NCBI GenBank assembly: GCA_000002435.2
Contig: CM018793.1
Origin: Giardia intestinalis
Taxonomy: Eukaryota
Reading direction: 5' to 3' (one strand)
Length of the DNA stretch: 64,000 nt
Positions 14,272 to 63,101 of this stretch are shown here, piece by piece. The notes beneath the pieces are model-generated. The model was not told the DNA's origin. It ran no database searches and was given only the letters and a program-made list of their open reading frames with translations. The translations under genes were made by a program, and so were the position numbers. Position 1 is the first letter of the stretch; the number at the start of each line of letters is the position of its first letter.

Positions 14272-15231
14272 TTAGTTTTTGTACACCGAAGACGCATCTT
14301 GGTCCATCTGAGGGAACATGACTGCTTGATATGGCTGGCCGAAGCCAGCGCCAGGGGGCACACCCATTACCGGCTGACCACTGCCAGCAGCCGGGAGCCA
14401 ATACATTAACCACTGGTATGGTACCGATGGATGATTTAAGAATCCAGGGCCTGCAACTGGCGTCTGAAGAGACAGCTGTTGCCATGCAGTAGGCACAACT
14501 GGCCCCTGGCTTGGAGCTGGCGAGGTAGAGGCAGCAGCAGCAGCAGTTGCCGTTGCAGCGGTCGTGGGGGGAGAGAAGGCCGAAAGGCCCACTGGAAACA
14601 CCGGCTGCGAGACCATTTGGGAAGAGGAAAAAGGTGGTTGTTGTGTAAACGAGTTCGTCGCCGGCTGATCAGCTGAGTTGGCAGTACCGTCAGTCGCAAG
14701 GGCAGCAAGAGTCGGCTTCTGATCGGCCGGATGTTGCCTCGTTTTTGACACAATAGAAACCGCGTGACGCTTAGTAGGAAGCGTAATTTTCTTGCGGCTC
14801 AGAATACGCTGTATGTCACGGCTTCTGAGCATGTTGTTGTAAGTCATCATAATCTCCTGTCGAGGATACTTGGACTCAAATAGATTACGAATTGTAAGTT
14901 GAAAACCATCCTCTAAAATTGTTTGAGTCTCAATCCCCTGGATAATAGCGTCCTTAATTATTTTCTTGTCTTCTGCTGACATCTTAATACCGGATATGCG
15001 ACGCAGATGCGTTTCGTTATACCAATGATAGACACTTGCGCGGGTCATGCCCAAATCCTTAGCGATACTTGGCCAGTTAACACGCATTTTGGAAACATAA
15101 CTATGAAGCGTTACCGGATTTTTAATAAGCTGCTCCATCGAGTGCTGGGGATCTAGCGTGGCGATGACTTGTACAGCAAGGGCACGCAATACTGCACGAT
15201 GAACATCGTTATAATCATCCGGTACAAGCAT
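14272..15231 (-). CDS. putative helix-turn-helix DNA-binding protein with Q/P/A-rich C-terminal tail
   Basis: ORF-track start 15240 is TTG; first ATG at 15229-15231 behind TTGAATTGAAAAAAATG; segment WPSIAKDLGMTRASVYHWYNE resembles psq/CENP-B/pogo-type HTH; C-terminal Pro/Gln/Ala low complexity including a (GCA)5 run. Confidence 0.5.
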   Translation of the reverse strand: MLVPDDYNDVHRAVLRALAVQVIATLDPQHSMEQLIKNPVTLHSYVSKMRVNWPSIAKDLGMTRASVYHWYNETHLRRISGIKMSAEDKKIIKDAIIQGIETQTILEDGFQLTIRNLFESKYPRQEIMMTYNNMLRSRDIQRILSRKKITLPTKRHAVSIVSKTRQHPADQKPTLAALATDGTANSADQPATNSFTQQPPFSSSQMVSQPVFPVGLSAFSPPTTAATATAAAAASTSPAPSQGPVVPTAWQQLSLQTPVAGPGFLNHPSVPYQWLMYWLPAAGSGQPVMGVPPGAGFGQPYQAVMFPQMDQDASSVYKN

Positions 15232-15909
15232 TTTTTTCAATTCAAGACCGTTAATATATTTTGTGGTCTTTAACAGTCAATGTGCCCTAGAAGCCGCTAT
15301 CCCGTTAAAGCGCCTCTTTCAGTTTATAACCGAGCAAAAAGCTTCGTTCAGGCCCTCGAGTCATGTACTAATCATGTACTGTCATGTACTATTTGAGTTG
15401 TAATTCGTGCAGTCAAGAAGTCATGACCGGCTCAACCCTCTGCTGTAAATCTCGAAGCATATGTCACCGCGTCGTGTGGTCTTCTTGACCGAGCATCTAA
15501 ATATTTTCGATGACAAACCTTTAGCTAATTTATAAAGGGTTTCTGTTTAGGCAGTATCTTTGGCACGATTCTCCTCTTCGCCCTCTGGGCCCTGTCTATT
15601 TTCCCCTGTCAGAATGGTTTATGTATGGCATATCAAATTTTTGTCAAATTATATAGACCATTCAGCTTAGAATCTTGCTTAAGGAAGTGTGCTTCCGGTC
15701 TAGACGGTGAAGGTTTACTTCGCTAGTATTTACTAGTAATTTCTTTCGGTATAATCTTATGAGATCTCCTACTCTTGAAGAGTACATCTCTTACTTTCGT
15801 TCTTTGCAAAGTGCAAAAGCTTTTGCCTTTCTCTTATGACTGCAGAGGGCTGTAAGGATGGGATGGCCGAAGAGCTTTGAGGAGGTTTTTGGGGGACCTC
15901 GGGCTATGG

Positions 15910-18900
15910 CTATAGCCTCAGAAACAGGTCTGCGCAGCCATAGTCAAGATGCTGTCTTCTTCCGACTGTCCATTCCAGCACTGATACGCTCGACTTTGGA
16001 GGATGCGCCATGTTCTGCGGCTGCAGGCAGGCAGGAGATGAGGCCAATAGTTCATCCATGCTGGGCGCAAAAAGGTCTATAGCCAGTCCACTGTATAGTT
16101 TAGCTGAATCACATGTTAATTTATATGCCTGTCTAACTCTGTGTGCCACATGGAATAGACCTGCAAACAGAAACGAGGAGGCTACGCCAGCTCCAAACCG
16201 ATAATAGAGCGCCTCGAATAGCCCCTGAAAAGCGTCAGAAAGCGTCCTATCACATAAGTCTAAGATGTTGGGGAAGGCCATCGAAATTAGATGGTCCAGC
16301 AGAGGAGACCCTTGCTGAATAGGGACACACGATAGCATCATGCTCTCTGCCACCCGCATACCCATCAAGCGCATAGACCCGTCTCTCTCTGCAAGCGCAT
16401 GCGATGCAACTCCAACCGTACCCTCCAAGAGTGCCATGTATGTGGTGCACCTTGTTTCACAGCTCTCTCTACTGCTCTCAGGCAACATCTGTGTACTTGT
16501 TAGTGATACCATGTTAAATGCGTAGGTTATTGTGCGAAGTATTGACAATTTAATGGCCCGATCCGGTAGTGCGCCATATTGAACGAGCAGGAACGGGAGA
16601 GCAGCACCAACTCCAGCAGAGAGCAAGACTGCAGCAGCTGCATGACACAAGACTAGTCTTGTTGATCTAGAAACAGTACCTTCGGTGATAAAGAGTGCCC
16701 AAAAGAGATCGTGAAGTGGACACACCTTACTTGCCTGTACTACTGCTTCTACTGCTAATTGCTCCAAGACACGAACACTGACGCTCTCTAGTGCATCGGG
16801 AATCAGACGCAAGCATTGAAGGATGTCTGGTCCCATGTTCTCTACCAGACTAGAGTGCAGCTCAAATTTCGAGAGATGCTTGTGTGCCTGAGAACTGACT
16901 GTTTCGAACACCTTATATGTCGCACACAAGTAGCTACATGCATCTTTCTTATCTGCTTTCATCCGCTCAGAAATCATGGTCTCGTGGATCTGGGCACATA
17001 TAACAGGTAGAAACGACACCAGTGGCCGTATCTGAGTGTGCGAAAAGGAGATGCCAGAGTTCATGATATCTACTAGGAGCTCACACACGATACTGAACCG
17101 CAATGCATCTGTGTCTGGCCTGAGGAGTTGAAATTGAGAAGCTATGAGGACAAATGCCCTTTCAAATAGCTCAGCAACCCCACTAATAGTAACATCTTCT
17201 AGGCTCTTTGATTCCACCAATAAGCGCAAGTAGATGGACAAGGGACCCAGGTACTGCGCAAAATCATTGCTGCACAGGTACTGCCTGAATTGCGGTAAGA
17301 CGTGCTCAACTATGAGCACGCGCAATACACCAGGCGTAAGACTAGCTACACTGATGAGACCCTGATGAATATCATGTAACAGTGAAAGGAATCCGTGATC
17401 AGTCCGGTGAATGGCCAGGATCAGTCTCTCCAGTGATTGTAGGAGCTGGAGAAGGACTGGTTTGGATAATGATTGATGCTTAGTTGAAGAGAAGCGTCGG
17501 AGGGCAAGCATTATTATGGAAAGAAGCGTTTTATCTGATGCTAGGTTGTGCATTTGTCCCTGTCTGCGTCTTAGAAGCAGGAGAAAAGCATTGAAGATAA
17601 TCTCAGGGAACAGAAGCGCAAGGTCTTGGAACACAGATGTAAAATGAAAATAAACATCACCAGGATAGTCTGACTTAGGAAGTAGGCATAGCCCTAAGAT
17701 ATTAGCTCCTTTTCGTTCAAGAAATCCATACACTTTCTCTCTAAAAGACTCGGCAACTGGAGCTATTCTCAAAAAGGCATTGAGAAGGAAGCAAACAGAA
17801 CGGATTCCGTGGGCAGAAAAGACTTGATTAACACTGCTAAATTTGTTACCAAGAGTGTCAATAGCGGACGAGAAAAACGCACAAAGGCGGTAATCCAAAC
17901 CACATATAATGGTGTGTGCATGCACAGACCAGCATATGGCCTCAATGTAAACCAATCCGTGTCTTATTAATGAGTTTGGGTGGGAAGCCAGCGTCACGAA
18001 GTGCTCATGCATTACAGAGATAGCATCTGGCGTTTCCCCTAAGCACAGCAGAATTTTCAGTATCTCTTGTGCCTGAGGGAGAGTTTTATCTAACTTTTGA
18101 CAGAGACAGCTGCACAAAGTCAGGTAGTCAGTCCAGGCAATGGTTGTGACGCAGTTATGACTCTTCAGCATCCAAGTGGTGAAGAAGTGCAGGCCATCGA
18201 TAACAGTTTCGCATGAGAATGAGACAGACTTTGAGAATCCATCATCATCCTTTCTATTGTTCTTAATGAATGTGGTAGTTAGTTCTTGAACAAGCCAATC
18301 AATGAAAAATGGGTTATATGCCTGCTGCATGCGTAGAACAAAGCGGAAGAAGAACGAAGCGTAGAGGTCAATAGCCATCGATGAGTCCGGTCCGGTCTCT
18401 GCCTTAATGCCCTCAAGTTGCTCTTTAATGAAGGATAGAACAAGCGAGATAAACGTGGTCATTGGGGTTGTTGTTTCAAGGACAGTGAAAAGAGTCGCAG
18501 ACAACTTTCCAAAGGTAGCGATGCCAGCCTTACGGTCGAGCCGAGAGAATGCGGTCTTTAAGATGGAAAAGCGAGAAGACTGCCTTACGATATGGTGAAT
18601 GTATTCACGATACGGCAGTTTTTTGCTTATGATGGCAGATAAAAGATCAAGTTGACTATCTATCTTATCGCCAAGTGGGTGCCGGCAAAGTCTTGCTATC
18701 AGCTTCTTAAGAATTTGCATGTGGATATTTGTGCTGCACTCGGGAATATAATCTGCTAGGATGCTGCAGATATCTTTAGAGCTATTGCGGCGAATAAATT
18801 CATCATAAAGGGTGTTTGGGCCCAAGGAGCCATTTTTGGCTTGTAAAGCTGCATCTGTAACAAAAAACCTAACAAGTTTTCCATGGGTGCTACACTTAAG

Positions 18901-18933
18901 TGCTGGTTCGATTGTCGCTGGTCCCGGCAGCAT
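15910..18933 (-). CDS. large hypothetical alpha-helical protein (1007 aa), possibly HEAT/ARM-like
   Basis: 3 kb ORF; ATG at 18931-18933 (minus) behind TTTTTAAAATG; no motif recognised. Confidence 0.6.
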   Translation of the reverse strand: MLPGPATIEPALKCSTHGKLVRFFVTDAALQAKNGSLGPNTLYDEFIRRNSSKDICSILADYIPECSTNIHMQILKKLIARLCRHPLGDKIDSQLDLLSAIISKKLPYREYIHHIVRQSSRFSILKTAFSRLDRKAGIATFGKLSATLFTVLETTTPMTTFISLVLSFIKEQLEGIKAETGPDSSMAIDLYASFFFRFVLRMQQAYNPFFIDWLVQELTTTFIKNNRKDDDGFSKSVSFSCETVIDGLHFFTTWMLKSHNCVTTIAWTDYLTLCSCLCQKLDKTLPQAQEILKILLCLGETPDAISVMHEHFVTLASHPNSLIRHGLVYIEAICWSVHAHTIICGLDYRLCAFFSSAIDTLGNKFSSVNQVFSAHGIRSVCFLLNAFLRIAPVAESFREKVYGFLERKGANILGLCLLPKSDYPGDVYFHFTSVFQDLALLFPEIIFNAFLLLLRRRQGQMHNLASDKTLLSIIMLALRRFSSTKHQSLSKPVLLQLLQSLERLILAIHRTDHGFLSLLHDIHQGLISVASLTPGVLRVLIVEHVLPQFRQYLCSNDFAQYLGPLSIYLRLLVESKSLEDVTISGVAELFERAFVLIASQFQLLRPDTDALRFSIVCELLVDIMNSGISFSHTQIRPLVSFLPVICAQIHETMISERMKADKKDACSYLCATYKVFETVSSQAHKHLSKFELHSSLVENMGPDILQCLRLIPDALESVSVRVLEQLAVEAVVQASKVCPLHDLFWALFITEGTVSRSTRLVLCHAAAAVLLSAGVGAALPFLLVQYGALPDRAIKLSILRTITYAFNMVSLTSTQMLPESSRESCETRCTTYMALLEGTVGVASHALAERDGSMRLMGMRVAESMMLSCVPIQQGSPLLDHLISMAFPNILDLCDRTLSDAFQGLFEALYYRFGAGVASSFLFAGLFHVAHRVRQAYKLTCDSAKLYSGLAIDLFAPSMDELLASSPACLQPQNMAHPPKSSVSVLEWTVGRRQHLDYGCADLFLRL

Positions 18934-53099: not shown

Positions 53100-54038
53100 A
53101 TGTTCGAAGAATTGAAGGAAGAGCGGGAAAAGTTCGCAGCGAAGATACAGTCTTTACAGAGGGCCAGACATGAAAGCTTAGTCCGCTCGTTCTATTCTCT
53201 CCAGCCTCAAAAGTCCCAATCCCTATCGCGACTTTATAGCCAGACAATTGAGCCGGTATTATGCAGTAAAAGCGGTGATGAGACAAGAGCAACCAACCAG
53301 GTCGATCTCCTTGCCGAGTCAATTACTGATCCAGAGAAGATATATGGTGAGAAGCTCGATAGCATTGCTAATATTACTAATGTATCACAGGATAAAGCGA
53401 GCAGCACAGTGCCTCCGGCGACCACAGCCGATAATTCATCAGAAACATATTGTTCCCCTACCACATACAATGTAATACGTAGCGGATACCAGCTGTGTGA
53501 CAGCGATAGCTCTTTCGGCAACTACAACACGATTGATGTTCTCAACCATTTAGCTGTTCACAGCCAGGCGACAAACGAAGAAAGAGACGAAGAAGTAAGT
53601 ATCCCGGCGGCTGTGCACACCCCAGTGACGCGGCACACAGAAACTGTAGCTCACCGTGTGAACGTGACCAAGAATGCCGTATCTGCGAACAAGATAGACT
53701 ATCGGCAGGCTGGGACACACACCCCTAGCAGAGATCCATCAACACAAAGTCACAAGCAAGCTAACAAGGGAACAATGACGCACAGCCTGTGTCTCAAGTC
53801 AGTCGCTATACAGGTCCATAGCCAGCCACCAAAGGCCTCCGACCACAGACAAGATGTTAAAAAGAAATTAACAGTTTCAGCCTTCGTGCACCCCATTAGA
53901 AAACAGCCCAAAATAGAGTACCACCCCGGTGCCATATCAAGCCTGGTGCATCCTGCGTATAGCTCTTCTGTGCTCCAATCATACACAGAAATATATAAAA
54001 GCCTCAGCAACACTAGCAAAGCGATACTGAGCAGCTAG
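53100..54038 (+). CDS. hypothetical protein (312 aa), N-terminal coiled coil, S/T-rich
   Basis: ATG behind TCATTAAAAAATG; 3' end overlaps the convergent gene's stop by 4 bp. Confidence 0.5.
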   Translation: MFEELKEEREKFAAKIQSLQRARHESLVRSFYSLQPQKSQSLSRLYSQTIEPVLCSKSGDETRATNQVDLLAESITDPEKIYGEKLDSIANITNVSQDKASSTVPPATTADNSSETYCSPTTYNVIRSGYQLCDSDSSFGNYNTIDVLNHLAVHSQATNEERDEEVSIPAAVHTPVTRHTETVAHRVNVTKNAVSANKIDYRQAGTHTPSRDPSTQSHKQANKGTMTHSLCLKSVAIQVHSQPPKASDHRQDVKKKLTVSAFVHPIRKQPKIEYHPGAISSLVHPAYSSSVLQSYTEIYKSLSNTSKAILSS

Positions 54039-56812
54039 TAGTCCATATTCGTCAGTACATCCTCCAGGGCATTGATGAGTTGCCGTGCACCAAGGCTTGC
54101 CAGGCCAAGTGGGGTTCTGTGAGTTTCCATGTATGATATCGCCTCATTCACCATCTTCTCTATCTGCTCACTAGATTGGCACAGCGTCGTTCCTAGCAAG
54201 GCGTGATGTTGTATTAACGGGTTTGTTAGCTTAGTCTCGCTATAGTTAACGACTGTCTGCCTGTGTACCTGCTGAGTCGTGGAGACGTCCAGAGAGCCGG
54301 GATTCAGAGACACCTCTTTGGCAGTTGAGTCTCTTGCACTGTACCCGACCCCTGGTGCAAAGATCAACGAGCTCAACGGCATAGCGCTTTCTGTGTTATA
54401 ATTGATAAGCCCCTCCTGCACCACAAACTTATAGATCTTATGGATTGTGTCAACTGGTACAGGAAGGATGTCATACAGTACAAAACATTTGAACGGACGC
54501 TTCTGCGTGGTTAGATAGTAATGTATTATCGTATTTCTAAACAGGATATAGTCTTGTTCTCGTAACTTCCCATTAGACAGCTCCGATGCGAAGTAGCCCT
54601 TTTCTAGCGGATACATGATAGTTACATCTTCGAACCACTTGTTCGGTGTCACCTGGAACAAGCTTGAATAGCTAGAATGAGTACGGGGGGCTGGGCTTTT
54701 AAAGTCAAGCATGCACTCTATCTCTCCATCCAGTACCTGTCTGGCCACAATAAGCCCTGACCCGGTGTGTCCATACGCCCTACCGTCATCGGCAACCCCC
54801 GTGAATTGCGGACCAAACAAGAGGGTGTCTAGGACAGGTGGGTACTTATATTTATGGCACTTAAACTCGTCCATTATCTGTGAAACAGGGACCAGATTTC
54901 CCTGTTCATCGGGTATCTTCAAATATTTGCGCAACTCTAGCTGATTATCACTACACCGAATTATGGATAACAGTATCTTTTCGGTATCACTGTCAAAATT
55001 ACTATTATAAATATAGCTAAATGCTGTCAATAGAAAGTGCTCTTTCAAGACCTCACACTTTCGTCCCAAGAAGCGCGGGTTGCTCAAAGTCATAGTGCAC
55101 TGAGCATCGTCTAGTGCTGCCTTTGTCTGATGATCTATTAACTGGCTCAGCACTGGCGAGTCCTCCTTAGCACCTGCCAAGAGAGCATGTGGCAGGTGTC
55201 CGTTCTGCCACTTAGATGGGTCTGAGGTTGGACTGAACAGAATATCGACAACATCCTTGGTCGAAAGGACACCGTGAAATGATAACATCCTATGTTCGTT
55301 TGGAGCATCTCTAAAAGATAATGTGCCAAAAGAGAGTGTGACATTTATTTTTTCATAGTTATATGTCTCTGCATCTCTCTCGTTTATGCCTGATTGACTG
55401 TCAGCTGGACTAAGGGTATATCCTATGTTTTTCTTTAAAAGATTCAAGGAGGACTCGTACTTCTCAGGATGGGCTCGCATGTTAGTGTAGAAGTAACTAA
55501 GATTGGGGCTCGTAAACTCAATATCTCGAAAAACAAATCTACATCCTCCACAGTGGCATTCGTAGTATTTGCAAGAATTATCTGAGGGCTGTGATAAGGG
55601 CGCAGCCGCCACATTCGCTGACTCCTCGAGGGCAGCTATGGGAACGTAGGTTATGTTTTGCTCGGTATAGTCTGATAGCTCACATAGCTCATTGTAGTTT
55701 AACGAATCCAAAAGCCACTGGAGCGACAGAAAGACAACTTCAAGACACACAGACCTGGGTGAAACAGATTCATGGGTGTCTGATTGTGCGGAGGCATCTG
55801 AAGAGAAGGTGTCCAGAGCATCTATAAAGTTCTGTGCATCAATGGAGTTGTCAAAAGAGAGTAGGGCGCGGGACCCTAGAAGGGGGACTACCTCACTTGC
55901 AGTAGGCTTTACCCCCTTGGCCTCTGCAACAAGCTGCTTCTGTTCCACTGTGTCGTACGAAGGAGGAGACCGTAACATGTGCACCAAGTACTGGTCTTCT
56001 ACAAATTCCAATATGCGGAAGGAGATTCGTGAAATGGCGAGATTGTCCTGCAATCGTCCTCGTCTAGGCTGAACAATTACTTTTCGCAGCTTATCGTCGC
56101 CACTCGGAAACCATGGAGCACACAACACAAGTGGGACAGCTGAGGTAAATACTTTGCCGAGCTGGTTGCAGGAACTAAGTGAGTCATCATCCTGCTTTTG
56201 TGTCGTATCCCGATCCTCATCGTGATAGTAAATTTCGTCAGCGTGAACTGAAAAGGAATGCTTGCCTACTACTGCTACTGAAGATGGCGCAAAATAGGAC
56301 GAGATTTTGAACTTGTTACACGCCTCCCCAAGCAATCTTTTTAACTCTACTGGCATGTGAGGATCAAAGATCAAGATATATTGCTTGCCAATCCTCTCTT
56401 CATTAATAGCTGCATAACACTTCGCATAGAGCGATAGGAACTCGTCAGTTGCCATGGAGGAGATGTGCTGGTAAACAGCGTCATACCTGAGCATGATCGA
56501 TGCCTCCGATGAATGAGAGATAATCATCCGCAGAATAAGGTGAAGCGTCTTATTGCGTGTTTTAGTATTGCTTAGGAGATAATGGGGGATCTTTGTTTGA
56601 GGCTGCACCCCTGCCTTCAACCCAAGAAGGGTGTCTGCACGCTCAAAAAAACACGAAAAGATACCTGAGAGCTTGTTGGAACAGTAAGCGTCCGTAAGTT
56701 TCCGACCGTCTTCAAAGAATGAGTGCGGAAGTTGCTGAATAAATGAATGAATATATGGCTGTAATAGCGTCTCCAGATAATCTTGAGACCAAGTGGCCTT
56801 GAGAAAAACCAT
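54035..56812 (-). CDS. large hypothetical protein (925 aa)
   Basis: ATG 56810-56812 behind AAATTAAAATAAATTATCATG; no motif recognised. Confidence 0.65.
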   Translation of the reverse strand: MVFLKATWSQDYLETLLQPYIHSFIQQLPHSFFEDGRKLTDAYCSNKLSGIFSCFFERADTLLGLKAGVQPQTKIPHYLLSNTKTRNKTLHLILRMIISHSSEASIMLRYDAVYQHISSMATDEFLSLYAKCYAAINEERIGKQYILIFDPHMPVELKRLLGEACNKFKISSYFAPSSVAVVGKHSFSVHADEIYYHDEDRDTTQKQDDDSLSSCNQLGKVFTSAVPLVLCAPWFPSGDDKLRKVIVQPRRGRLQDNLAISRISFRILEFVEDQYLVHMLRSPPSYDTVEQKQLVAEAKGVKPTASEVVPLLGSRALLSFDNSIDAQNFIDALDTFSSDASAQSDTHESVSPRSVCLEVVFLSLQWLLDSLNYNELCELSDYTEQNITYVPIAALEESANVAAAPLSQPSDNSCKYYECHCGGCRFVFRDIEFTSPNLSYFYTNMRAHPEKYESSLNLLKKNIGYTLSPADSQSGINERDAETYNYEKINVTLSFGTLSFRDAPNEHRMLSFHGVLSTKDVVDILFSPTSDPSKWQNGHLPHALLAGAKEDSPVLSQLIDHQTKAALDDAQCTMTLSNPRFLGRKCEVLKEHFLLTAFSYIYNSNFDSDTEKILLSIIRCSDNQLELRKYLKIPDEQGNLVPVSQIMDEFKCHKYKYPPVLDTLLFGPQFTGVADDGRAYGHTGSGLIVARQVLDGEIECMLDFKSPAPRTHSSYSSLFQVTPNKWFEDVTIMYPLEKGYFASELSNGKLREQDYILFRNTIIHYYLTTQKRPFKCFVLYDILPVPVDTIHKIYKFVVQEGLINYNTESAMPLSSLIFAPGVGYSARDSTAKEVSLNPGSLDVSTTQQVHRQTVVNYSETKLTNPLIQHHALLGTTLCQSSEQIEKMVNEAISYMETHRTPLGLASLGARQLINALEDVLTNMDY

Positions 56813-57411: not shown

Positions 57412-58044
57412 GACCTATCCTGTCTTATTCACTGTCTACACCTCAAGATAGCCACTTATCATTCTAGCAGCTAGAGTTCTCAACTCTCCAGTGTTATGTC
57501 CTTGTTGGATCGCCCATAACTATCTGGTGCGTTGTACCGTAGTTTTCGATGCACGTATGCAATGCAGTATCCGATTGTATCTCTATTCGGCAAACGTGAG
57601 ATGTACTTGGATTTACCCTTGAGGCAGAGTATTCATCTTATTAGACGCAACAGTGCTGCCGACCAAGCCACTGCTAGGCAGAGCACACGGCCTGTATCTG
57701 CTCATCTCGTGCTCTAGCCAGCCACCCTGCGTGAGCATCTGGAGACATGCCTGGACATATGTGTGGTATTCTGCGGTGTGTACGGTCCCGTGTCCACGCA
57801 GTAGGCCAGCCAGAGAGCGTGTGCAGGCACGCCATGTGGCACCACGTCCTTTGTGGAGCGCTGGAGGAATACACAGGTGAGGGTCTACCATCAAGATGCG
57901 GACACGTTGCTTCCTGACATGGAAGGTCAATGAGGCTATCCAGATGGCCCAGCTATGGTAGAAGGCTAGCAGATGTGATCGTATTGGCCATCAGCACTGT
58001 CACTAACACCAACATGCATGACTAATGGACCTAGCAGGGCCGCA

Positions 58045-59610
58045 ATGTTGCTACTAGTTCTCTGCTTTTTGATGAGCGCCCTCGCCGCGCAACGCACTAA
58101 ACAACCCACATCCGACTGCGGAGTCGCAAACTGCGCCCAGTGCAACGCGGACGGCAGGACGTGTGATCAGTGCAGCGAGGGGTACAACCTCAACCAGGAG
58201 AAGACCCAGTGCACCAAGGCGTGCGCGGTCGCAAACTGCGCCCAGTGCAACGCGGACGGCAGGACGTGTGATCAGTGCAGCGAGGGGTACAACCTCAACC
58301 AGGAGAAGACCCAGTGCACCAAGGCGTGCGCGGTCGCAAACTGCGCCCAGTGCAACGCGGACGGCAGGACGTGTGATCAGTGCAGCGAGGGGTACAACCT
58401 CAACCAGGAGAAGACCCAGTGCACCAAGGCGTGCGCGGTCGCAAACTGCGCCCAGTGCAACGCGGACGGCAGGACGTGTGATCAGTGCAGCGAGGGGTAC
58501 AACCTCAACCAGGAGAAGACCCAGTGCACCAAGGCGTGCGCGGTCGCAAACTGCGCCCAGTGCAACGCGGACGGCAGGACGTGTGATCAGTGCAGCGAGG
58601 GGTACAACCTCAACCAGGAGAAGACCCAGTGCACCAAGAACCCAGAAGCGCGATGCAATACTCCCAACTGTAAGACCTGTGACAGCCCCAAAACAGACAG
58701 TGAAATCTGCACTGAATGTAATAATGGCAACTACCTCACCCCGACAAAGCAGTGCACGCAGAGCTGCGGAACAATAGGAAGCTACTACAACGGAGACAAA
58801 GTGTGCGAGCCCTGTGATCCTAGCTGTGCTGCGTGCATCACAAAGGGACCAGCGAAGTGCACGCTGTGTCCTCCCGGGAAGAGGCTCCAGTACACAGATG
58901 AAGGAGCCACTCAGAACGGCGGATCCTGCGTAGATGAGTGCAAGCCTGAAGGAGGAGCTAGCGGATGCGAGACCTGCGGAGCCACCATCGGAGGGACAAA
59001 GTATTGCTCGAAGTGCAGCACATCCACGGAGGTCCCCGTCAACGGGGTCTGTACAGCAGACAATGCCCGCGCAGCTGCGTGCAAGGTGAAAGATGGCAAG
59101 GGAGGGTGCACTACGTGTGAGAGTGGATACTTCCTCCAAGACGGCGGTTGCTACAAACTCGGTAGACAGCCCGGTGAGCAGATATGCACAGCAGCCAGTA
59201 GCGCTGGTAAGTGCGAGACGTGCGCCAATAGTCTTCAGCCCAATAATGGAGCATGCCCCTCGTGTCACTCGACCTGTAAGACATGTCGTGATGCTAATTC
59301 TGCAAATGCTTGTACAACGTGTGCAGCTGGGTACTATATGGTCGGATCAGCAGCTGGACCATGCACTTCGTGTGACAGCAACAGTGGAAGTGTCAAGGGA
59401 GTTGCTGGCTGCATGAGCTGCGCTCCTCCATCGTCTAGTACTGGCTCCGTCCTTTGCTACCTCATGAACGGTGACAGTGCCGGCGGAAGCACGAACAAGA
59501 GCGGCCTTAGCACAGGCGCCATCGCAGGCATTTCTGTCGCAGTCATCGTTGTCGTGGGGGGTCTTGTCGGCTTCCTCTGCTGGTGGTTCCTCTGCAGGGG
59601 CAAGGCGTAG
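58045..59610 (+). CDS. VSP: variant-specific surface protein (VSP)
   Basis: Signal peptide MLLLVLCFLMSALAA, about 11% Cys in CXXC motifs, GGCY motif, C-terminal TM plus invariant CRGKA tail; AGTAAAC poly(A) motif at 59625-59631; an upstream in-frame ATG at 58018 is possible. Confidence 0.9.
   Translation: MLLLVLCFLMSALAAQRTKQPTSDCGVANCAQCNADGRTCDQCSEGYNLNQEKTQCTKACAVANCAQCNADGRTCDQCSEGYNLNQEKTQCTKACAVANCAQCNADGRTCDQCSEGYNLNQEKTQCTKACAVANCAQCNADGRTCDQCSEGYNLNQEKTQCTKACAVANCAQCNADGRTCDQCSEGYNLNQEKTQCTKNPEARCNTPNCKTCDSPKTDSEICTECNNGNYLTPTKQCTQSCGTIGSYYNGDKVCEPCDPSCAACITKGPAKCTLCPPGKRLQYTDEGATQNGGSCVDECKPEGGASGCETCGATIGGTKYCSKCSTSTEVPVNGVCTADNARAAACKVKDGKGGCTTCESGYFLQDGGCYKLGRQPGEQICTAASSAGKCETCANSLQPNNGACPSCHSTCKTCRDANSANACTTCAAGYYMVGSAAGPCTSCDSNSGSVKGVAGCMSCAPPSSSTGSVLCYLMNGDSAGGSTNKSGLSTGAIAGISVAVIVVVGGLVGFLCWWFLCRGKA
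58114..58638 (+). repeat. 5 x 105-bp perfect or near-perfect tandem repeat inside the VSP CDS (35-aa unit ACAVANCAQCNADGRTCDQCSEGYNLNQEKTQCTK)
   Basis: Copies at 58114, 58219, 58324, 58429, 58534; copies 2-5 identical at nucleotide level, copy 1 differs only in its first ~10 nt. Confidence 0.9.
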
Positions 59611-59624
59611 ATGTGTACTTAGGT

Positions 59625-59631
59625 AGTAAAC
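59625..59631 (+). terminator. Giardia-type polyadenylation signal AGTAAAC after VSP stop
   Basis: AGTRAAY 15 nt after TAG. Confidence 0.6.
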
Positions 59632-60664
59632 GCGTCATTGTGTGTGGCTTATATAAATGTGCTGCTGGGGCTATCTGAGCGTGGCCCAGAGGTCGTGCGG
59701 GTGAGCCCGCTCCTTCCTGGCCAGTCCAGGAACGATGGCTGGTTTTGGATGATATAATAGGGATCTCCCTTCACTTGTATACCAGGAGTCTTTTGCGTCC
59801 CTCAGTTGTTCCGCAGAGGTGTGCTCAGTTCGAGTGTGCGCGTCGCTCAGCCCAGGATTCAACTTACTTGTCCATCTGCATTGTCCACCATTGGTGCCAC
59901 TTCTTGGTCTACCGCTCTGATGCCGGAGGGTCCCAGTAGTTGATGACCCTGGACTGACGCCTCGACAGACCGAAGCATCAGCCCAAGTGTGCTGTGCAGT
60001 GCAGATGGACCAGCCCACACGTCACTGAGCCAGACGCACTGCACAGGGTGAGCGTCGACACGGTCTCGTACTGGATGACGGACCACCTGCAAGAGCGCAC
60101 TGCGATCCATGAGCAGAGGACCATACTTCTCCCCCGATACCAACGCATAGGAGCTGTCCGCCGGCATCCACGAACGCGTACTATGACTCCAAGATAGAGG
60201 CGCACGGGGAGCATACCCTCCGATCATACTCGGAACCGATGATCGCTTCATGGGGAGACAAAGAGGTGCCCCGAGGAACGGGATAGGCACCCGAGGTCGT
60301 GGCGTGCGATCTTCGTCACGGAGCACCAGGGCCACGTGGAGGCCAGGCTGCTGTGACCGACGGTAGCCCCGAGACAACAGGTGCTCACTAGATATCAGAC
60401 GATGGTTGACCCCGACGGGCCAGAGGATGGGAGGAATCTAGAGGCACCGCGAGGAGCGGCAGGTCCCGGGGGAGACAGGATATAGGAGTTCTCCCGCCGG
60501 GATCGAGGGCATCCGACTCTCGGATTTCTGATCTCAGCTATTGTATGAGCGAGAGGCTTGCCCAGGGCGGCAATGGCTCGCATGAAAAGACCACTCCGGT
60601 AGCAGGCGACAACCCCGCCTCATTAAAATTTACTCTTCCCTAACCTCGTCTCTCTAGATATCTG

Positions 60665-61219
60665 ATGGTAGGCCCATTTGACAGTCTTGCAGATGCATTA
60701 ATACGACAGATGAACCTCCAGTTGGAGGACATGCGGCACAATGGAGAATACTCTCTCCTTCTAAGGATCATTCGGGGCCAGACCTCATTAACAGACAGAG
60801 TTGCCAAGAACCAAGAAGCACTATCTGTTGCCCGGAAGAAAGCAGGGGCAATTTTGACTGTATCACGACCTAAGCCACAAACTGACCCTGGATTTATTCA
60901 GAGAACGCAAAAAGCCCTTGAAGAAACACAGGACGCTATCCAGGAGACTCAGCGAAATATAGAGCGTCTCGAAGCCCAGCTAAAAGATGTTACTGCCAAG
61001 ACTGCAAACAAGGATGAATTACGACGTGCTGCATTGACTCTAGCAGACAGAGAAAATGCGGGTAGGGAGGAGCTCGTTGAACTTTATCACAGCATATCGG
61101 GAGTACACTGGGATCAGCCCGACTTGGGATATGTGCTTAGCGAGGAGATTGCAAAACCCATCCGTTTCAGCTCCTGTGTCGATGCCACCAACCAGCTCTG
61201 GGAAATGATTAACATGTAG
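60665..61219 (+). CDS. hypothetical coiled-coil protein (184 aa)
   Basis: Central heptad region (QKALEETQDAIQETQRNIERLEAQLKDVTAK) plus small C-terminal globular part; family uncertain. Confidence 0.45.
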   Translation: MVGPFDSLADALIRQMNLQLEDMRHNGEYSLLLRIIRGQTSLTDRVAKNQEALSVARKKAGAILTVSRPKPQTDPGFIQRTQKALEETQDAIQETQRNIERLEAQLKDVTAKTANKDELRRAALTLADRENAGREELVELYHSISGVHWDQPDLGYVLSEEIAKPIRFSSCVDATNQLWEMINM

Positions 61220-61250: not shown

Positions 61251-63101
61251 TCATCTTGCCTTTTTCCATCTACTATCTTTGGTAGGAATGCGTACGGGTT
61301 CTGCTAGTTTCCCTTTGCCACGCCCCTTTCCGATTCCTCTGCGAGGCATCATGGGCTTTCTCACTGGGCCCAGCCCTTGTTTCATTGCCCTTGCTGCCCG
61401 TGCATCCGCTCTTCGCATCCGCTCTGTCTTGTGTGACCCGATTGCAAAACTTCCCTGGTAAGTAGAGCGTATTCCCTCTGCATTGGGAAGTAAATAAGAG
61501 GGGACGAATTTCAGGTGCATTGTCATCTGACGTTGTCTTTCTATGAGGGGGTTCGTTTTGATCCGTTTAATCAGGGCCATATCTTTGCTCTGCTGGCTGA
61601 AGTACTTTCGTAAGGAATCTGAAGCCAAAATCTCTGCCTTTATCTCAGAAAGCCGATATTCCTTAATGGCGGAGGGTGTTAGTCCATGCAGCACATCCAC
61701 AACACGGTAGCGGAAGCTCTCCAGGGCTTGGATATTGAACTGAAATGGTGCGAGGAGCTCTTTTCCAAACTCTTCGCGCTGCGCCCGCAATACGTCAAGG
61801 ACGACATCACGATTATCCTTACTATCTTCATGGATAATAGTTATAGCGTGCCCGCAAGGATTGGCGCCACGCGCTGTGCGGCCTATTCTATGGATATAGT
61901 TTATGCTAGACACTGGGCAGTCGAAGTTTAGCACTACATCGACTCTCGTGAAGTCCAGCCCTCTGAAAATTCCGGCCTCCTTTGAGGCTGATGGCGCTGA
62001 TGCTTGCTTCTCTGCTGGGGTGCTAGGGTCATGCTCGGCAGCTTTTGTTGCCATGCTCGAACTATCTGCCTCTTGCACACCTTCAGTTTCCTTATTATCA
62101 GAAGCTTTAGTACCATCTTTGGTATCACTTTTGGTATCATCCTTGGCACTATCCCTGATACTGTCATCAACCGCAATAAGAACATACTCTGCTCCAAGGT
62201 TGTAGCCTTCAATGACTGCTTGCCGAGTCGAGACAGGAAGCTCTGGATTATAAAGAAATGCCTTCTGGCCGAATCGGTACAAGAACAATTTAAGCTTGTA
62301 CGCTGTAGTGACAGAGTTGACAAAGATCACAATGTATCCGCGAAGAATTTGCAGCTTGACAAGGGCATATATTAGCATGTATTTTTTCTCTGTTGTGTCT
62401 AGAGATATTAGATGTTGGACTGGCTGTGTAAGGAGCTTTTGCTCCGTCTCCTCTAGCTTGATAAGCTTTGGCGATCGTAAATGTAGATTGACTATGTTCT
62501 CCAGTTTTTGGTCAAGGGTTGCTGAAAGAAAGAACTTCTGAGCTGACGCGGGCAAATATTCGAGGAGAGCCTCTAGATCGGGACCGTAGTCCATGTCAAA
62601 GATCAAGTCTGCCTCATCGCATACAAACTGGACGATGTTCTTGAGAGAGATCTTGCTGTCTTTGATAAGGTTCATAACCAAAGATGGAGTGGAGATGAGG
62701 ATCTCTGGCATAGACCGCAGAGTAATTGCTTCTGCAGAAGAATTTTCTCCAAGATAAATCGCTGCGCAGGTGACAGTAAATGCGTTGCTTGAAAACTCCT
62801 TTATTATGGCAAGTAGGACCTCCTCGAGCTGGCGACAGAGCTCACGTGTGGGGACCACTATGAGGGCCGTTATGGCGGCCATTGGCTTAACACTCCTAGA
62901 GCGCCCCTGAAGAATGCGATGAAGAATGGCGGTGAGATATATGACAGTCTTCCCGCTACCCGTAAAACTCTGGCAGAGGATATCATTGTGTGCTAAGGCC
63001 TCGGGTATTGCAAGTTTTTGTATAGGTAGTGCCTCATATAAGCCAAGGTTTCGCAGTGCATCGCAGAGTCTAGGATCAATACCGAAGCTCTCCCAATCCA
63101 T
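61251..63101 (-). CDS. DEAD-box ATP-dependent RNA helicase
   Basis: Q-motif region, motif I SFTGSGKT, Ia PTRELCRQ, II DEAD (VCDEADLIFD), III SAT, VI HRIGRTARG, basic K/R-rich C-terminus; ATG behind AATTTAAAAAATG. Confidence 0.9.
   Translation of the reverse strand: MDWESFGIDPRLCDALRNLGLYEALPIQKLAIPEALAHNDILCQSFTGSGKTVIYLTAILHRILQGRSRSVKPMAAITALIVVPTRELCRQLEEVLLAIIKEFSSNAFTVTCAAIYLGENSSAEAITLRSMPEILISTPSLVMNLIKDSKISLKNIVQFVCDEADLIFDMDYGPDLEALLEYLPASAQKFFLSATLDQKLENIVNLHLRSPKLIKLEETEQKLLTQPVQHLISLDTTEKKYMLIYALVKLQILRGYIVIFVNSVTTAYKLKLFLYRFGQKAFLYNPELPVSTRQAVIEGYNLGAEYVLIAVDDSIRDSAKDDTKSDTKDGTKASDNKETEGVQEADSSSMATKAAEHDPSTPAEKQASAPSASKEAGIFRGLDFTRVDVVLNFDCPVSSINYIHRIGRTARGANPCGHAITIIHEDSKDNRDVVLDVLRAQREEFGKELLAPFQFNIQALESFRYRVVDVLHGLTPSAIKEYRLSEIKAEILASDSLRKYFSQQSKDMALIKRIKTNPLIERQRQMTMHLKFVPSYLLPNAEGIRSTYQGSFAIGSHKTERMRRADARAARAMKQGLGPVRKPMMPRRGIGKGRGKGKLAEPVRIPTKDSRWKKAR

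What the first reader, a model, noticed from the sequence alone, without database searches (positions are those of the whole stretch)
58114..58638. VSP gene carrying five tandem 105-bp (35-aa) repeats, four of them nucleotide-identical
The repeat unit encodes a complete CXXC-containing module (ACAVANCAQCNADGRTCDQCSEGYNLNQEKTQCTK). Zero divergence between copies 2-5 implies very recent expansion or ongoing concerted evolution. Such arrays are prone to slippage, so this VSP is a likely length-polymorphic antigen and a strong epitope-repeat candidate. It is also a place where short-read assemblies collapse.
Basis: seen in the sequence. Interest (0 to 1): 0.7.

Follow-up and report, generated by a model that had tools for sequence, protein, structure and literature searches.

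The report
Known Giardia VSP tandem-repeat gene (vsp108)
This is the already catalogued Giardia lamblia WB surface-antigen gene vsp108 (GL50803_102662), whose outer end is five in-frame copies of one 35-residue cysteine-rich module; the repeat is real, but it is an ordinary, published feature of this gene family.

Summary
A perfectly periodic 105-bp array spans 58123-58638 (4.9 copies, 100% match). Units 2-5 are identical; unit 1 differs only in its first 9 nt.

The gene is a textbook Giardia VSP: Inr CAATGTT at the ATG, signal peptide, 71 Cys, 24 CXXC, GGCY, a transmembrane helix plus CRGKA, a conserved 3' poly(A) motif, and Pfam VSP at E=3e-98. It is 100% identical to XP_001705986 of G. lamblia WB.

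Both the gene and its repeat are published. Adam et al. 2010 list it as vsp108 / GL50803_102662, "TR105". A 2022 preprint lists the identical 105-nt consensus from the newer chromosome-level WB record (NC_051860.1).

The Sanger-era record and that newer record show the same five units, so an assembly artefact is unlikely. No length polymorphism has been shown.

Related VSPs carry their own arrays of the same six-cysteine module. These arrays are identical internally but only 31-67% identical between genes. That pattern fits repeated local duplication and homogenisation.

Short-read contigs do fail to cross this locus. However, the left break (57851) is explained by a 5' flank shared with paralogous VSP genes, not by the array.

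Verdict: real, correctly read, already known, low interest.

The parts
57818..58143 (+). 5' cassette shared with paralogous VSP genes: 227 bp upstream of the ATG, the leader, and the first 30 nt of repeat unit 1
   Evidence: 96% identical over 326 bp to DH isolate locus L014 818-1143, which carries a different, one-module mini-VSP in a non-syntenic neighbourhood. The start of homology plus k-1 (30) equals 57851, the exact end of the two short-read contigs aligned (21 similar places not shown).
58043..58049 (+). Initiator element CAATGTT containing the true start codon (ATG 58045-58047)
   Evidence: Position. Adam 2010 Additional file 1 lists Inr CAATGTT for vsp108. The newer record XP_001705986.2 starts here. 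The P15 homologues start at the aligned ATG, and the upstream ATG (58018) is not conserved as an ORF in P15.
58045..59610 (+). vsp108 / GL50803_102662 coding sequence (521 aa plus stop; the older 530-aa model starts at 58018)
   Evidence: ORF. Pfam VSP E=2.9e-98. 100% match to XP_001705986.1. 530 aa, 71 Cys, 13.4% Cys and 24 CXXC match the vsp108 row exactly. The 521-aa version is in the 2022 preprint supplement.
58045..58089 (+). Signal peptide MLLLVLCFLMSALAA
   Evidence: Hydrophobic leader shared with other VSPs. The AF2 model has a helix at residues 2-9 followed by a low-confidence linker.
58114..58638 (+). Five tandem 105-bp units (35 aa each: C-x4-C-x2-C-x6-C-x2-C-x12-C-x3); perfect periodicity over 58123-58638
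   Evidence: The consensus is identical to entry 28 (GL50803_102662) of the preprint's tandem-repeat consensus table. AF2 shows four short strands per unit, repeating exactly every 35 residues, with block pLDDT about 78-90.
58639..59517 (+). Non-repeated cysteine-rich ectodomain, including GGCY at 59143-59154
   Evidence: About 81% nt identity to P15 relative L012, against 65% for the repeat unit. Many invariant Cys columns in the 50-sequence alignment.
59518..59607 (+). Transmembrane helix (59518-59592) and cytoplasmic tail CRGKA (59593-59607)
   Evidence: AF2 helix at residues 496-518. Invariant C-terminal columns.
59616..59635 (+). Conserved VSP 3' motif TACTTAGGTAGTAAACGCGT containing the poly(A) signal AGTAAA (59625-59630)
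   Evidence: Position. The same 20-mer is listed for GL50803_00102662 and many other VSPs in the preprint's supplement.

Best explanation
The feature is the N-terminal tandem-repeat domain of the Giardia lamblia (assemblage A1, isolate WB) variant-specific surface protein gene vsp108 (GL50803_102662 / GL50803_00102662, XP_001705986, chromosome 5). Each 105-bp unit encodes one self-contained 35-residue module with six cysteines (two CXXC) and a predicted pair of small beta-hairpins, resembling a furin-like repeat. Five such modules in series form the membrane-distal end of an elongated cysteine-rich ectodomain. That ectodomain is anchored by a C-terminal transmembrane helix and a CRGKA tail. 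The array arose by in-frame duplication of a single pre-existing module. It is kept sequence-identical by unequal recombination or replication slippage between copies (concerted evolution). The same module has been amplified independently in other VSP paralogues. Shown here: the anatomy, the gene's identity, reproducibility across two WB records, and the identical-within, divergent-between pattern of arrays. Inferred: the duplication mechanism, the disulfide pairing, and the biological effect. That effect would be a multiplied epitope on one member of the antigenic-variation repertoire.
For: The array is perfect. All VSP hallmarks are present. The ORF is 100% identical to XP_001705986.1. Its statistics match the vsp108 row 'TR105, chr 5, 530 aa, 71 Cys, 24 CXXC' in Adam 2010. 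An identical 105-nt consensus and a five-unit, 521-aa protein appear in the record on NC_051860.1. P15 relatives carry a 105 bp x3.0 array and a 120 bp x2.9 array, each with 100% matches. The WB unit and the P15 105-bp unit share only 68/105 nt: 9 synonymous and 13 non-synonymous codon differences. The non-repeat part is about 81% identical. Single-copy versions of the module sit at the same position in P0005 and P0014. Nine other WB arrays with periods of 111-120 bp encode the same Cys pattern at 31-51% amino-acid identity. In the AF2 model (mean pLDDT 82.9) the secondary structure repeats every 35 residues. The best solved-structure matches are R-spondin furin-like repeats, E about 7e-4.
Against: No direct evidence on the mechanism or timing of expansion. 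The fold match is weak (TM 0.08-0.4, as expected for a flexible rod). Pfam gives no furin-like hit for the repeat region. Surface expression of this particular VSP was not examined; only low, unannotated expression values for it were seen in a supplement.
Confidence: 0.93

Rival explanations
1. The five-copy array is an assembly artefact: either copies were spuriously duplicated, or a much longer array (as in vspC5 and vspA6, more than 20 copies) was collapsed to five.
For: Adam 2010 warns that repeat numbers are approximate because assemblies may condense arrays. No short-read contig in the collection spans the locus. No exact product of 530, 521 or 333 aa is on record in the contig index.
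Against: The Sanger-era record (XP_001705986.1, 530 aa) and the record on the newer chromosome-level WB sequence NC_051860.1 (XP_001705986.2, 521 aa) contain exactly the same five units. From my own knowledge, not checked here, that newer assembly was built from long reads. A 516-bp array is shorter than a Sanger read and far shorter than a PacBio read, so it should be resolvable.
Confidence: 0.04
2. The array is an actively length-variable locus. Copy number differs among the four chromosome copies, among WB clones, or among A1 isolates, so that this VSP is a size-polymorphic antigen.
For: [quoted passage not shown] Perfect identity of the copies is the best substrate for slippage or unequal exchange. 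Related genes range from 1 to 3 to 5 copies of the module.
Against: The only two independent records available give the same number. A consensus assembly would hide minor alleles, so this is weak evidence. No ortholog from another isolate is in the protein collection; the best non-self hit is 78% identical over 74% of the query. Polymorphism therefore could not be tested.
Confidence: 0.3
3. The copies are old, and their identity is maintained by purifying selection on the protein rather than by recent duplication or homogenisation.
For: The module is structurally constrained: six cysteines, with conserved spacing across paralogues.
Against: Selection on the protein would not remove synonymous differences. 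There are none among the four full copies. The homologous P15 unit differs at 9 synonymous codons out of 35. The repeat unit is also the faster-evolving part of the gene between relatives: 65% versus 81% nt identity.
Confidence: 0.02

Closest known systems
vsp108 = GL50803_102662 / GL50803_00102662 (XP_001705986), G. lamblia WB, as listed by Adam et al. 2010 (PMC2996952) and in bioRxiv 10.1101/2022.03.07.483299
   Same: It is this gene. The protein is 100% identical. Length, Cys count, CXXC count, Inr type and the 'TR105' label all match. The published 105-nt repeat consensus is identical.
   Different: Adam 2010 counts 4 repeats, whereas there are 4.9 perfect copies, or five units in the coding register. 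The older model starts 27 nt upstream (530 aa versus 521 aa).
vspC5 (vsp90), G. lamblia WB: 66-bp 5' end followed by more than 20 copies of a 105-bp repeat (Yang et al. 1994, as described in PMC2996952)
   Same: Same repeat period (105 bp). The repeats start about 66-69 bp after the ATG. The leader is nearly the same as that of P0034, which matches C5-S2 in length and in Cys and CXXC counts (25 of 33 residues identical). Both are on chromosome 5.
   Different: The vspC5 repeats run up to the conserved 3' end, and it is placed in clade III. vsp108 has only about 5 copies followed by 879 bp of non-repeated ectodomain, and is in clade II. Adam 2010 states that each gene's repeat is unique.
vsp141 (GL50803_114813; 120-bp repeat x6) and the DH mini-VSP P0121/L014
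   Same: Closest repeat unit within WB: 18 of 35 aa and 78 of 105 nt identical, with 26 of the first 30 nt identical. The DH gene shares a 96%-identical 326-bp 5' cassette with window 57818-58143.
   Different: The vsp141 unit is 40 aa and carries a linker. The DH gene has a single module and is only 101-110 aa. The DH gene lies in a different, non-syntenic neighbourhood.
Assemblage E (P15) VSPs P0002 (105 bp x3) and P0003 (120 bp x2.9)
   Same: Best overall homologues (64-65% identity over 98% of the query). Each has a tandem array of the same module at the same place, just before the ...CNTPNCK(A/T)CD... module, and each array is 100% identical internally.
   Different: The units are only 49-67% identical to the WB unit. 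These proteins have an extra N-terminal module. The loci are not syntenic with the window.
vspA6 / CRP170 (vsp67; 195-bp repeat, about 23 copies)
   Same: The paradigm of a repeat-bearing VSP. The array lies just after the leader, allelic copy-number variation is reported, and the repeat domain is reported to be immunodominant (PMC2996952).
   Different: The unit is 65 aa, the array is far longer, and the sequence is unrelated at the unit level.
Furin-like cysteine-rich repeats (R-spondin Fu1-Fu2, EGFR family)
   Same: Best solved-structure matches to the AF2 model (Foldseek E 7e-4 to 4e-2, probability up to 0.99). The 2022 preprint reports SMART furin-like and EGF hits in some VSPs.
   Different: Low TM-scores. 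No Pfam furin-like hit for the repeat region. This is a resemblance of module type only, not evidence of membership or shared function.

Membership tests
Giardia variant-specific surface protein (VSP) | Match to Pfam PF03302 (VSP) above the gathering score | tested here: met
   329.8 bits against a cut-off of 31.4, E=2.9e-98.
Giardia variant-specific surface protein (VSP) | Cysteine-rich ectodomain (about 11-13% Cys) with many CXXC motifs | tested here: met
   71 Cys (13.4% of 530 aa) and 24 CXXC. Identical numbers appear in the vsp108 row.
Giardia variant-specific surface protein (VSP) | Conserved C-terminus: hydrophobic transmembrane segment followed by the cytoplasmic pentapeptide CRGKA | tested here: met
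   AIAGISVAVIVVVGGLVGFLCWWFL followed by CRGKA and a stop, at 59518-59610. AF2 helix at residues 496-518.
Giardia variant-specific surface protein (VSP) | N-terminal signal peptide and a GGCY motif | tested here: met
   Leader MLLLVLCFLMSALAA. GGCY at residues 367-370.
Giardia variant-specific surface protein (VSP) | Initiator element (C/T)AATGTT at the start codon and the conserved 3' poly(A) motif | tested here: met
   CAATGTT at 58043-58049. TACTTAGGTAGTAAACGCGT at 59616-59635. Both are listed for this gene in the literature tables.
Giardia variant-specific surface protein (VSP) | Mutually exclusive surface expression and switching (antigenic variation) | not testable with these tools
   Needs clone-level expression or antibody data. 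Only low, unannotated expression values were seen in a supplement.
Tandem-repeat-containing VSPs (30 genes in Adam 2010; 36 of 136 in the 2022 preprint) | In-frame tandem repeat of 105-516 bp within the ectodomain-coding region | tested here: met
   105 bp x 4.9, in frame. Listed as TR105 and as consensus no. 28.
[quoted passage not shown] | Near-identical 5' region and leader | tested here: inconclusive
   The leader is 25 of 33 identical to P0034, which matches C5-S2 by length and by Cys and CXXC counts. A 326-bp 5' cassette is 96% identical to a DH paralogue. The vspC5 sequence itself was not available for comparison.
[quoted passage not shown] | 105-bp tandem repeat with the vspC5 unit sequence | not testable with these tools
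   The period is the same (105 bp), but no vspC5 unit sequence could be obtained. The original papers are not held. No other 105-nt consensus appears in the preprint table.
[quoted passage not shown] | Repeats extend from the leader to the conserved 3' end (almost the whole ectodomain is repeat) | tested here: not met
   879 bp (293 aa) of non-repeated ectodomain follow the array. Adam 2010 places vsp108 in clade II and vsp90 (C5) in clade III.
Furin-like cysteine-rich repeat (structural class) | Fold similarity to solved Fu repeats and a profile match | tested here: inconclusive
   Foldseek top hits are R-spondin Fu1-Fu2 at E about 7e-4 but with TM below 0.4. There is no Pfam furin-like hit even at E up to 1.

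The most novel reading that the evidence does not exclude
The perfectly homogeneous array might be a site of ongoing mitotic copy-number change. Alleles or sub-clones of WB would then carry different numbers of the 35-aa module. That would give this VSP size and epitope-valency variants on top of expression switching, and the consensus assemblies would hide it.
Probability: 0.1. Interest if true: 0.35.

Novelty: already known. Interest (0 to 1): 0.1.

Why it matters
It adds little. Repeat-bearing VSPs have been known since the early 1990s (vspA6, vspC5, CRP136). This particular gene and its 105-bp repeat are tabulated in two genome-wide VSP surveys. The only added value is comparative. The same six-cysteine module has been amplified separately in several VSP paralogues and in assemblage E. 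Each array is internally identical but divergent from the others, which illustrates concerted evolution within VSP genes. The work also gives a practical caution. Short-read contigs break at shared VSP 5' flanks as well as at arrays. Copy numbers for such genes should therefore be taken from long reads.

Tried and rejected
(1) Exact-product look-ups for the 530-aa, 521-aa and 333-aa (post-array) products, and for a downstream antisense ORF, found nothing on record. Contigs covering the VSP itself in other samples therefore could not be retrieved, and copy number in other isolates could not be read.

(2) A word-index protein search with the leader plus three units returned only 2 candidates and missed the gene itself. 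It was uninformative, probably because of the repetitive query.

(3) An exhaustive HMMER search of the leader plus repeat region against 1.84 billion representatives gave 867 hits. All were at most 43% identical, mostly very long cysteine-rich proteins, apart from the leader match to P0121. No other protein carries this exact unit.

(4) Literature searches for '105-bp' and for '102662' in main texts gave nothing relevant. The original vspA6 and vspC5 papers and the 2001 review are not held.

(5) The bacterial promoter and terminator scan is irrelevant for a eukaryote and was ignored.

(6) Synteny with the P15 and DH relatives was checked and rejected. None of these loci shares neighbours with the window, so they are treated as paralogues or relocated genes, not positional orthologues.

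(7) The long antisense ORF (58054-59268, 404 aa) and the +2-frame ORF (58163-58777, 204 aa) were considered and rejected as genes. They are periodic read-throughs of the repeat with no independent support.

Full report
OBSERVATION

Tandem Repeats Finder reports one strong array in the 64-kb window: 58123-58638, period 105, 4.9 copies, 100% matches, no indels, score 1032. A base-by-base test shows 411 consecutive positions identical to the base 105 nt downstream, so perfect periodicity extends over 516 bp.

Units 2-5 are identical. Unit 1 differs only in its first nine bases (GACTGCGGA versus GCGTGCGCG; D-C-G versus A-C-A).

The 105-bp segments on either side of the array are about 62% identical to the unit. 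They are diverged modules of the same kind.

WHAT THE GENE IS

The array lies in an ORF at 58018-59610 (+), 530 aa. The product has:
- 71 cysteines (13.4%) and 24 CXXC motifs;
- a GGCY motif;
- a C-terminal hydrophobic segment;
- the pentapeptide CRGKA immediately before the stop.

Pfam gives PF03302 (Giardia variant-specific surface protein) at E=2.9e-98. The protein collection returns a 100% identical, full-length hit: XP_001705986.1, VSP of Giardia lamblia ATCC 50803 (isolate WB).

Additional file 1 of Adam et al. 2010 (BMC Genomics 11:424, PMC2996952) has a row that matches every statistic. It reads: vsp108, clade II, gene GL50803_102662, feature TR105 (105 nt, 4 repeats), chromosome 5, complete, Inr CAATGTT, 530 aa, 54.5 kDa, 71 Cys, 13.4%, 24 CXXC.

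The supplements of bioRxiv 10.1101/2022.03.07.483299 list the same gene on the newer chromosome-level WB sequence. It appears as GL50803_00102662, XP_001705986.2, on NC_051860.1, with 521 aa and 71 Cys. It starts MLLLVLCFLMSALAAQRTKQPTSDC and has the same five units. The tandem-repeat consensus given there is identical to the one TRF gives here. The gene and its repeat are therefore already described, twice.

START CODON AND GENE SIGNALS

The true start is almost certainly the second ATG (58045), which sits inside the initiator element CAATGTT (58043-58049). Three observations support this:
- The newer annotation uses this start.
- The P15 homologues start at the aligned ATG.
- The upstream ATG (58018) is not conserved as an open frame in P15.

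The conserved VSP 3' motif TACTTAGGTAGTAAACGCGT, which contains the AGTAAA poly(A) signal, lies at 59616-59635.

THE UNIT AS A MODULE

Cysteine spacing through the array is strictly C-4-C-2-C-6-C-2-C-12-C-3, repeated five times. The next, non-repeated module has the related spacing C-4-C-2-C-9-C-2-C-11-C.

An AlphaFold2 model was built from a 50-sequence alignment (mean pLDDT 82.9; ten-residue block means about 78-90 in the repeat region). It shows four short beta-strands per unit, recurring exactly every 35 residues. It also shows a C-terminal helix at residues 496-518.

Foldseek against the PDB gives R-spondin furin-like repeats (Fu1-Fu2) as the best matches. E is about 7e-4 and probability up to 0.99, but TM-scores are low, as expected for a flexible rod. 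Pfam gives no furin-like hit for the repeat region. The "furin-like" label is therefore a resemblance, not a tested membership.

HOW THE ARRAY RELATES TO OTHER VSPS

Among the 120 best homologues, only the gene itself carries this exact unit. An exhaustive HMMER scan of 1.84 billion representatives found nothing above 43% identity, apart from a match to the leader.

The module class, however, has been amplified repeatedly:
- In assemblage E (isolate P15), the two best homologues have arrays at the equivalent position: 105 bp x3.0 (L012) and 120 bp x2.9 (L013). Each shows 100% matches.
- A third P15 relative (P0005) and a WB paralogue (P0014) have a single copy there.
- In the preprint's consensus table, nine other WB genes have arrays of 111-120 nt encoding the same cysteine pattern. 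Their units are 31-51% identical to this unit. The closest is GL50803_114813 (vsp141), at 78 of 105 nt and 26 of the first 30 nt.

The WB unit and the P15 105-bp unit share only 68 of 105 nt, with 9 synonymous and 13 non-synonymous codon differences. The non-repeated remainder of the two genes is about 81% identical.

Arrays are thus identical within a gene, strongly divergent between genes, and more divergent than the rest of the gene. This is the signature of recurrent local duplication with homogenisation (unequal exchange or slippage). It is not the signature of protein-level purifying selection, which would leave synonymous differences between copies. This mechanism is an inference; nothing here observes it directly.

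ARTEFACT OR POLYMORPHISM?

The five units appear both in the Sanger-era record (XP_001705986.1) and in the record on the newer chromosome-level sequence (XP_001705986.2). At 516 bp, the array is well within a single Sanger or PacBio read. An assembly duplication or collapse is therefore unlikely.

Both records come from the same isolate and are consensus sequences. They say little about allelic or between-isolate length variation.

No near-identical ortholog from another isolate is in the collection; the best non-self hit is 78% identical over 74% of the query. It remains plausible by analogy. Adam 2010 cites allelic copy-number variation for vspA6 and vspC5, and immunodominance of the vspA6 repeat.

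SHORT-READ ASSEMBLIES

Look-ups with the two neighbouring genes returned only short-read (Logan) contigs. The neighbours are a DEAD-box helicase at 61251-63101 (-) and a SWIRM-domain protein at 54035-56812 (-).
- For the upstream gene, 23 contigs were read and two places were shown and aligned. Both end exactly at window 57851 (21 similar places were not shown).
- For the downstream gene, 23 contigs were read and nine places were shown and aligned. These end between 60478 and 60727.
- None of the contigs shown crosses the VSP.

The left break is not caused by the array, which lies 272 bp further on. Window 57818-58143 covers 227 bp of 5' flank, the leader, and the first 30 nt of unit 1. It is 96% identical to the 5' end of a different, one-module mini-VSP in isolate DH (assemblage A2; L014), in a non-syntenic neighbourhood.

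A duplicated 5' cassette that starts near 57820 predicts a k=31 contig end at about 57851, exactly as seen. The k=31 value is my assumption about how the Logan contigs were built. [quoted passage not shown] The scattered right-hand breaks are unexplained.

RELATION TO VSPC5

vspC5 (vsp90) is described as 66 bp of 5' sequence followed by more than 20 copies of a 105-bp repeat that run to the conserved 3' end.

vsp108 resembles it in several ways:
- It has the same period.
- Its repeats begin 69 bp after the ATG.
- Its leader is 25 of 33 identical to P0034, whose length and Cys and CXXC counts equal those of C5-S2.

It also differs:
- About five copies are followed by 879 bp of non-repeated ectodomain.
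- Adam 2010 places it in a different clade.
- Adam 2010 states that every gene's repeat is unique.

The vspC5 unit sequence could not be obtained. I therefore do not file vsp108 as a vspC5 subfamily member. It is a relative with the same architecture at its 5' end.

VERDICT

The identification as a repeat-bearing VSP is correct, and the concerted-evolution reading is well supported by comparison. The length-polymorphism and epitope predictions are untested. The short-read "collapse" claim is only indirectly supported, and one of the breaks has a different cause. Everything essential is already published, so novelty is "already known" and interest is low.

Noticed in passing
window 58018-58047: The older gene model (530 aa, XP_001705986.1) starts at an upstream ATG (58018). 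The Inr-embedded ATG at 58045 is the start used by the newer record (521 aa, XP_001705986.2) and by the P15 homologues. The upstream ATG is not an open frame in P15.
   Followed up: yes
window 57818-58143; L014 818-1143: A 326-bp 5' cassette (flank, leader and start of the first module) is 96% identical to a DH (assemblage A2) gene. That gene encodes only a 101-110-aa one-module mini-VSP whose module resembles the WB vsp141 repeat unit. If it is the DH counterpart of vsp141 (6 x 120 bp in WB), this would be a large between-isolate difference in repeat number; alternatively the 454-era DH assembly may have collapsed the array.
   Followed up: partly
window 57851 and 60478-60727: The short-read (Logan) contigs shown that carry the neighbouring genes stop at these points. 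The two aligned on the left both end exactly at 57851, which is explained by the shared 5' cassette plus k-1. The nine aligned on the right end at scattered positions, which is unexplained.
   Followed up: partly
window 60146-60463; L012 9304-9674: A non-coding segment downstream of the WB VSP is 70-74% identical, in the same orientation, to a segment that lies upstream of the related P15 VSP. This may be a VSP-associated flanking element or a remnant of an ancestral head-to-tail VSP array.
   Followed up: no
window 57412-58044 and 59611-60664: The intergenic spacers around the VSP (633 bp and about 1,050 bp) are clearly longer than several of the other gaps between listed ORFs in this window (about 20-200 bp, with some ORFs overlapping). 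They contain only short unsupported ORFs, for example 57613-57930 (-) and 59859-60377 (-).
   Followed up: no
window 58054-59268 (-) and 58163-58777 (+): Long ORFs in other frames or on the other strand (404 aa and 204 aa) run through the array. They are periodic read-throughs of the repeat with no homology support, and could mislead automatic gene callers.
   Followed up: partly
window 15359-15391: The only other tandem repeat in the window: an 11-bp unit x3.1, 82% matches, score 52, inside or next to ORFs at 14272-15240 (-) and 15910-18933 (-). Probably insignificant.
   Followed up: no
L012 2699-4630 and 10001-11485: The P15 contig carries two VSP genes about 5.4 kb apart in head-to-head orientation (643 aa on the - strand and 494 aa on the + strand), with three small unannotated ORFs between them.
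   Followed up: no
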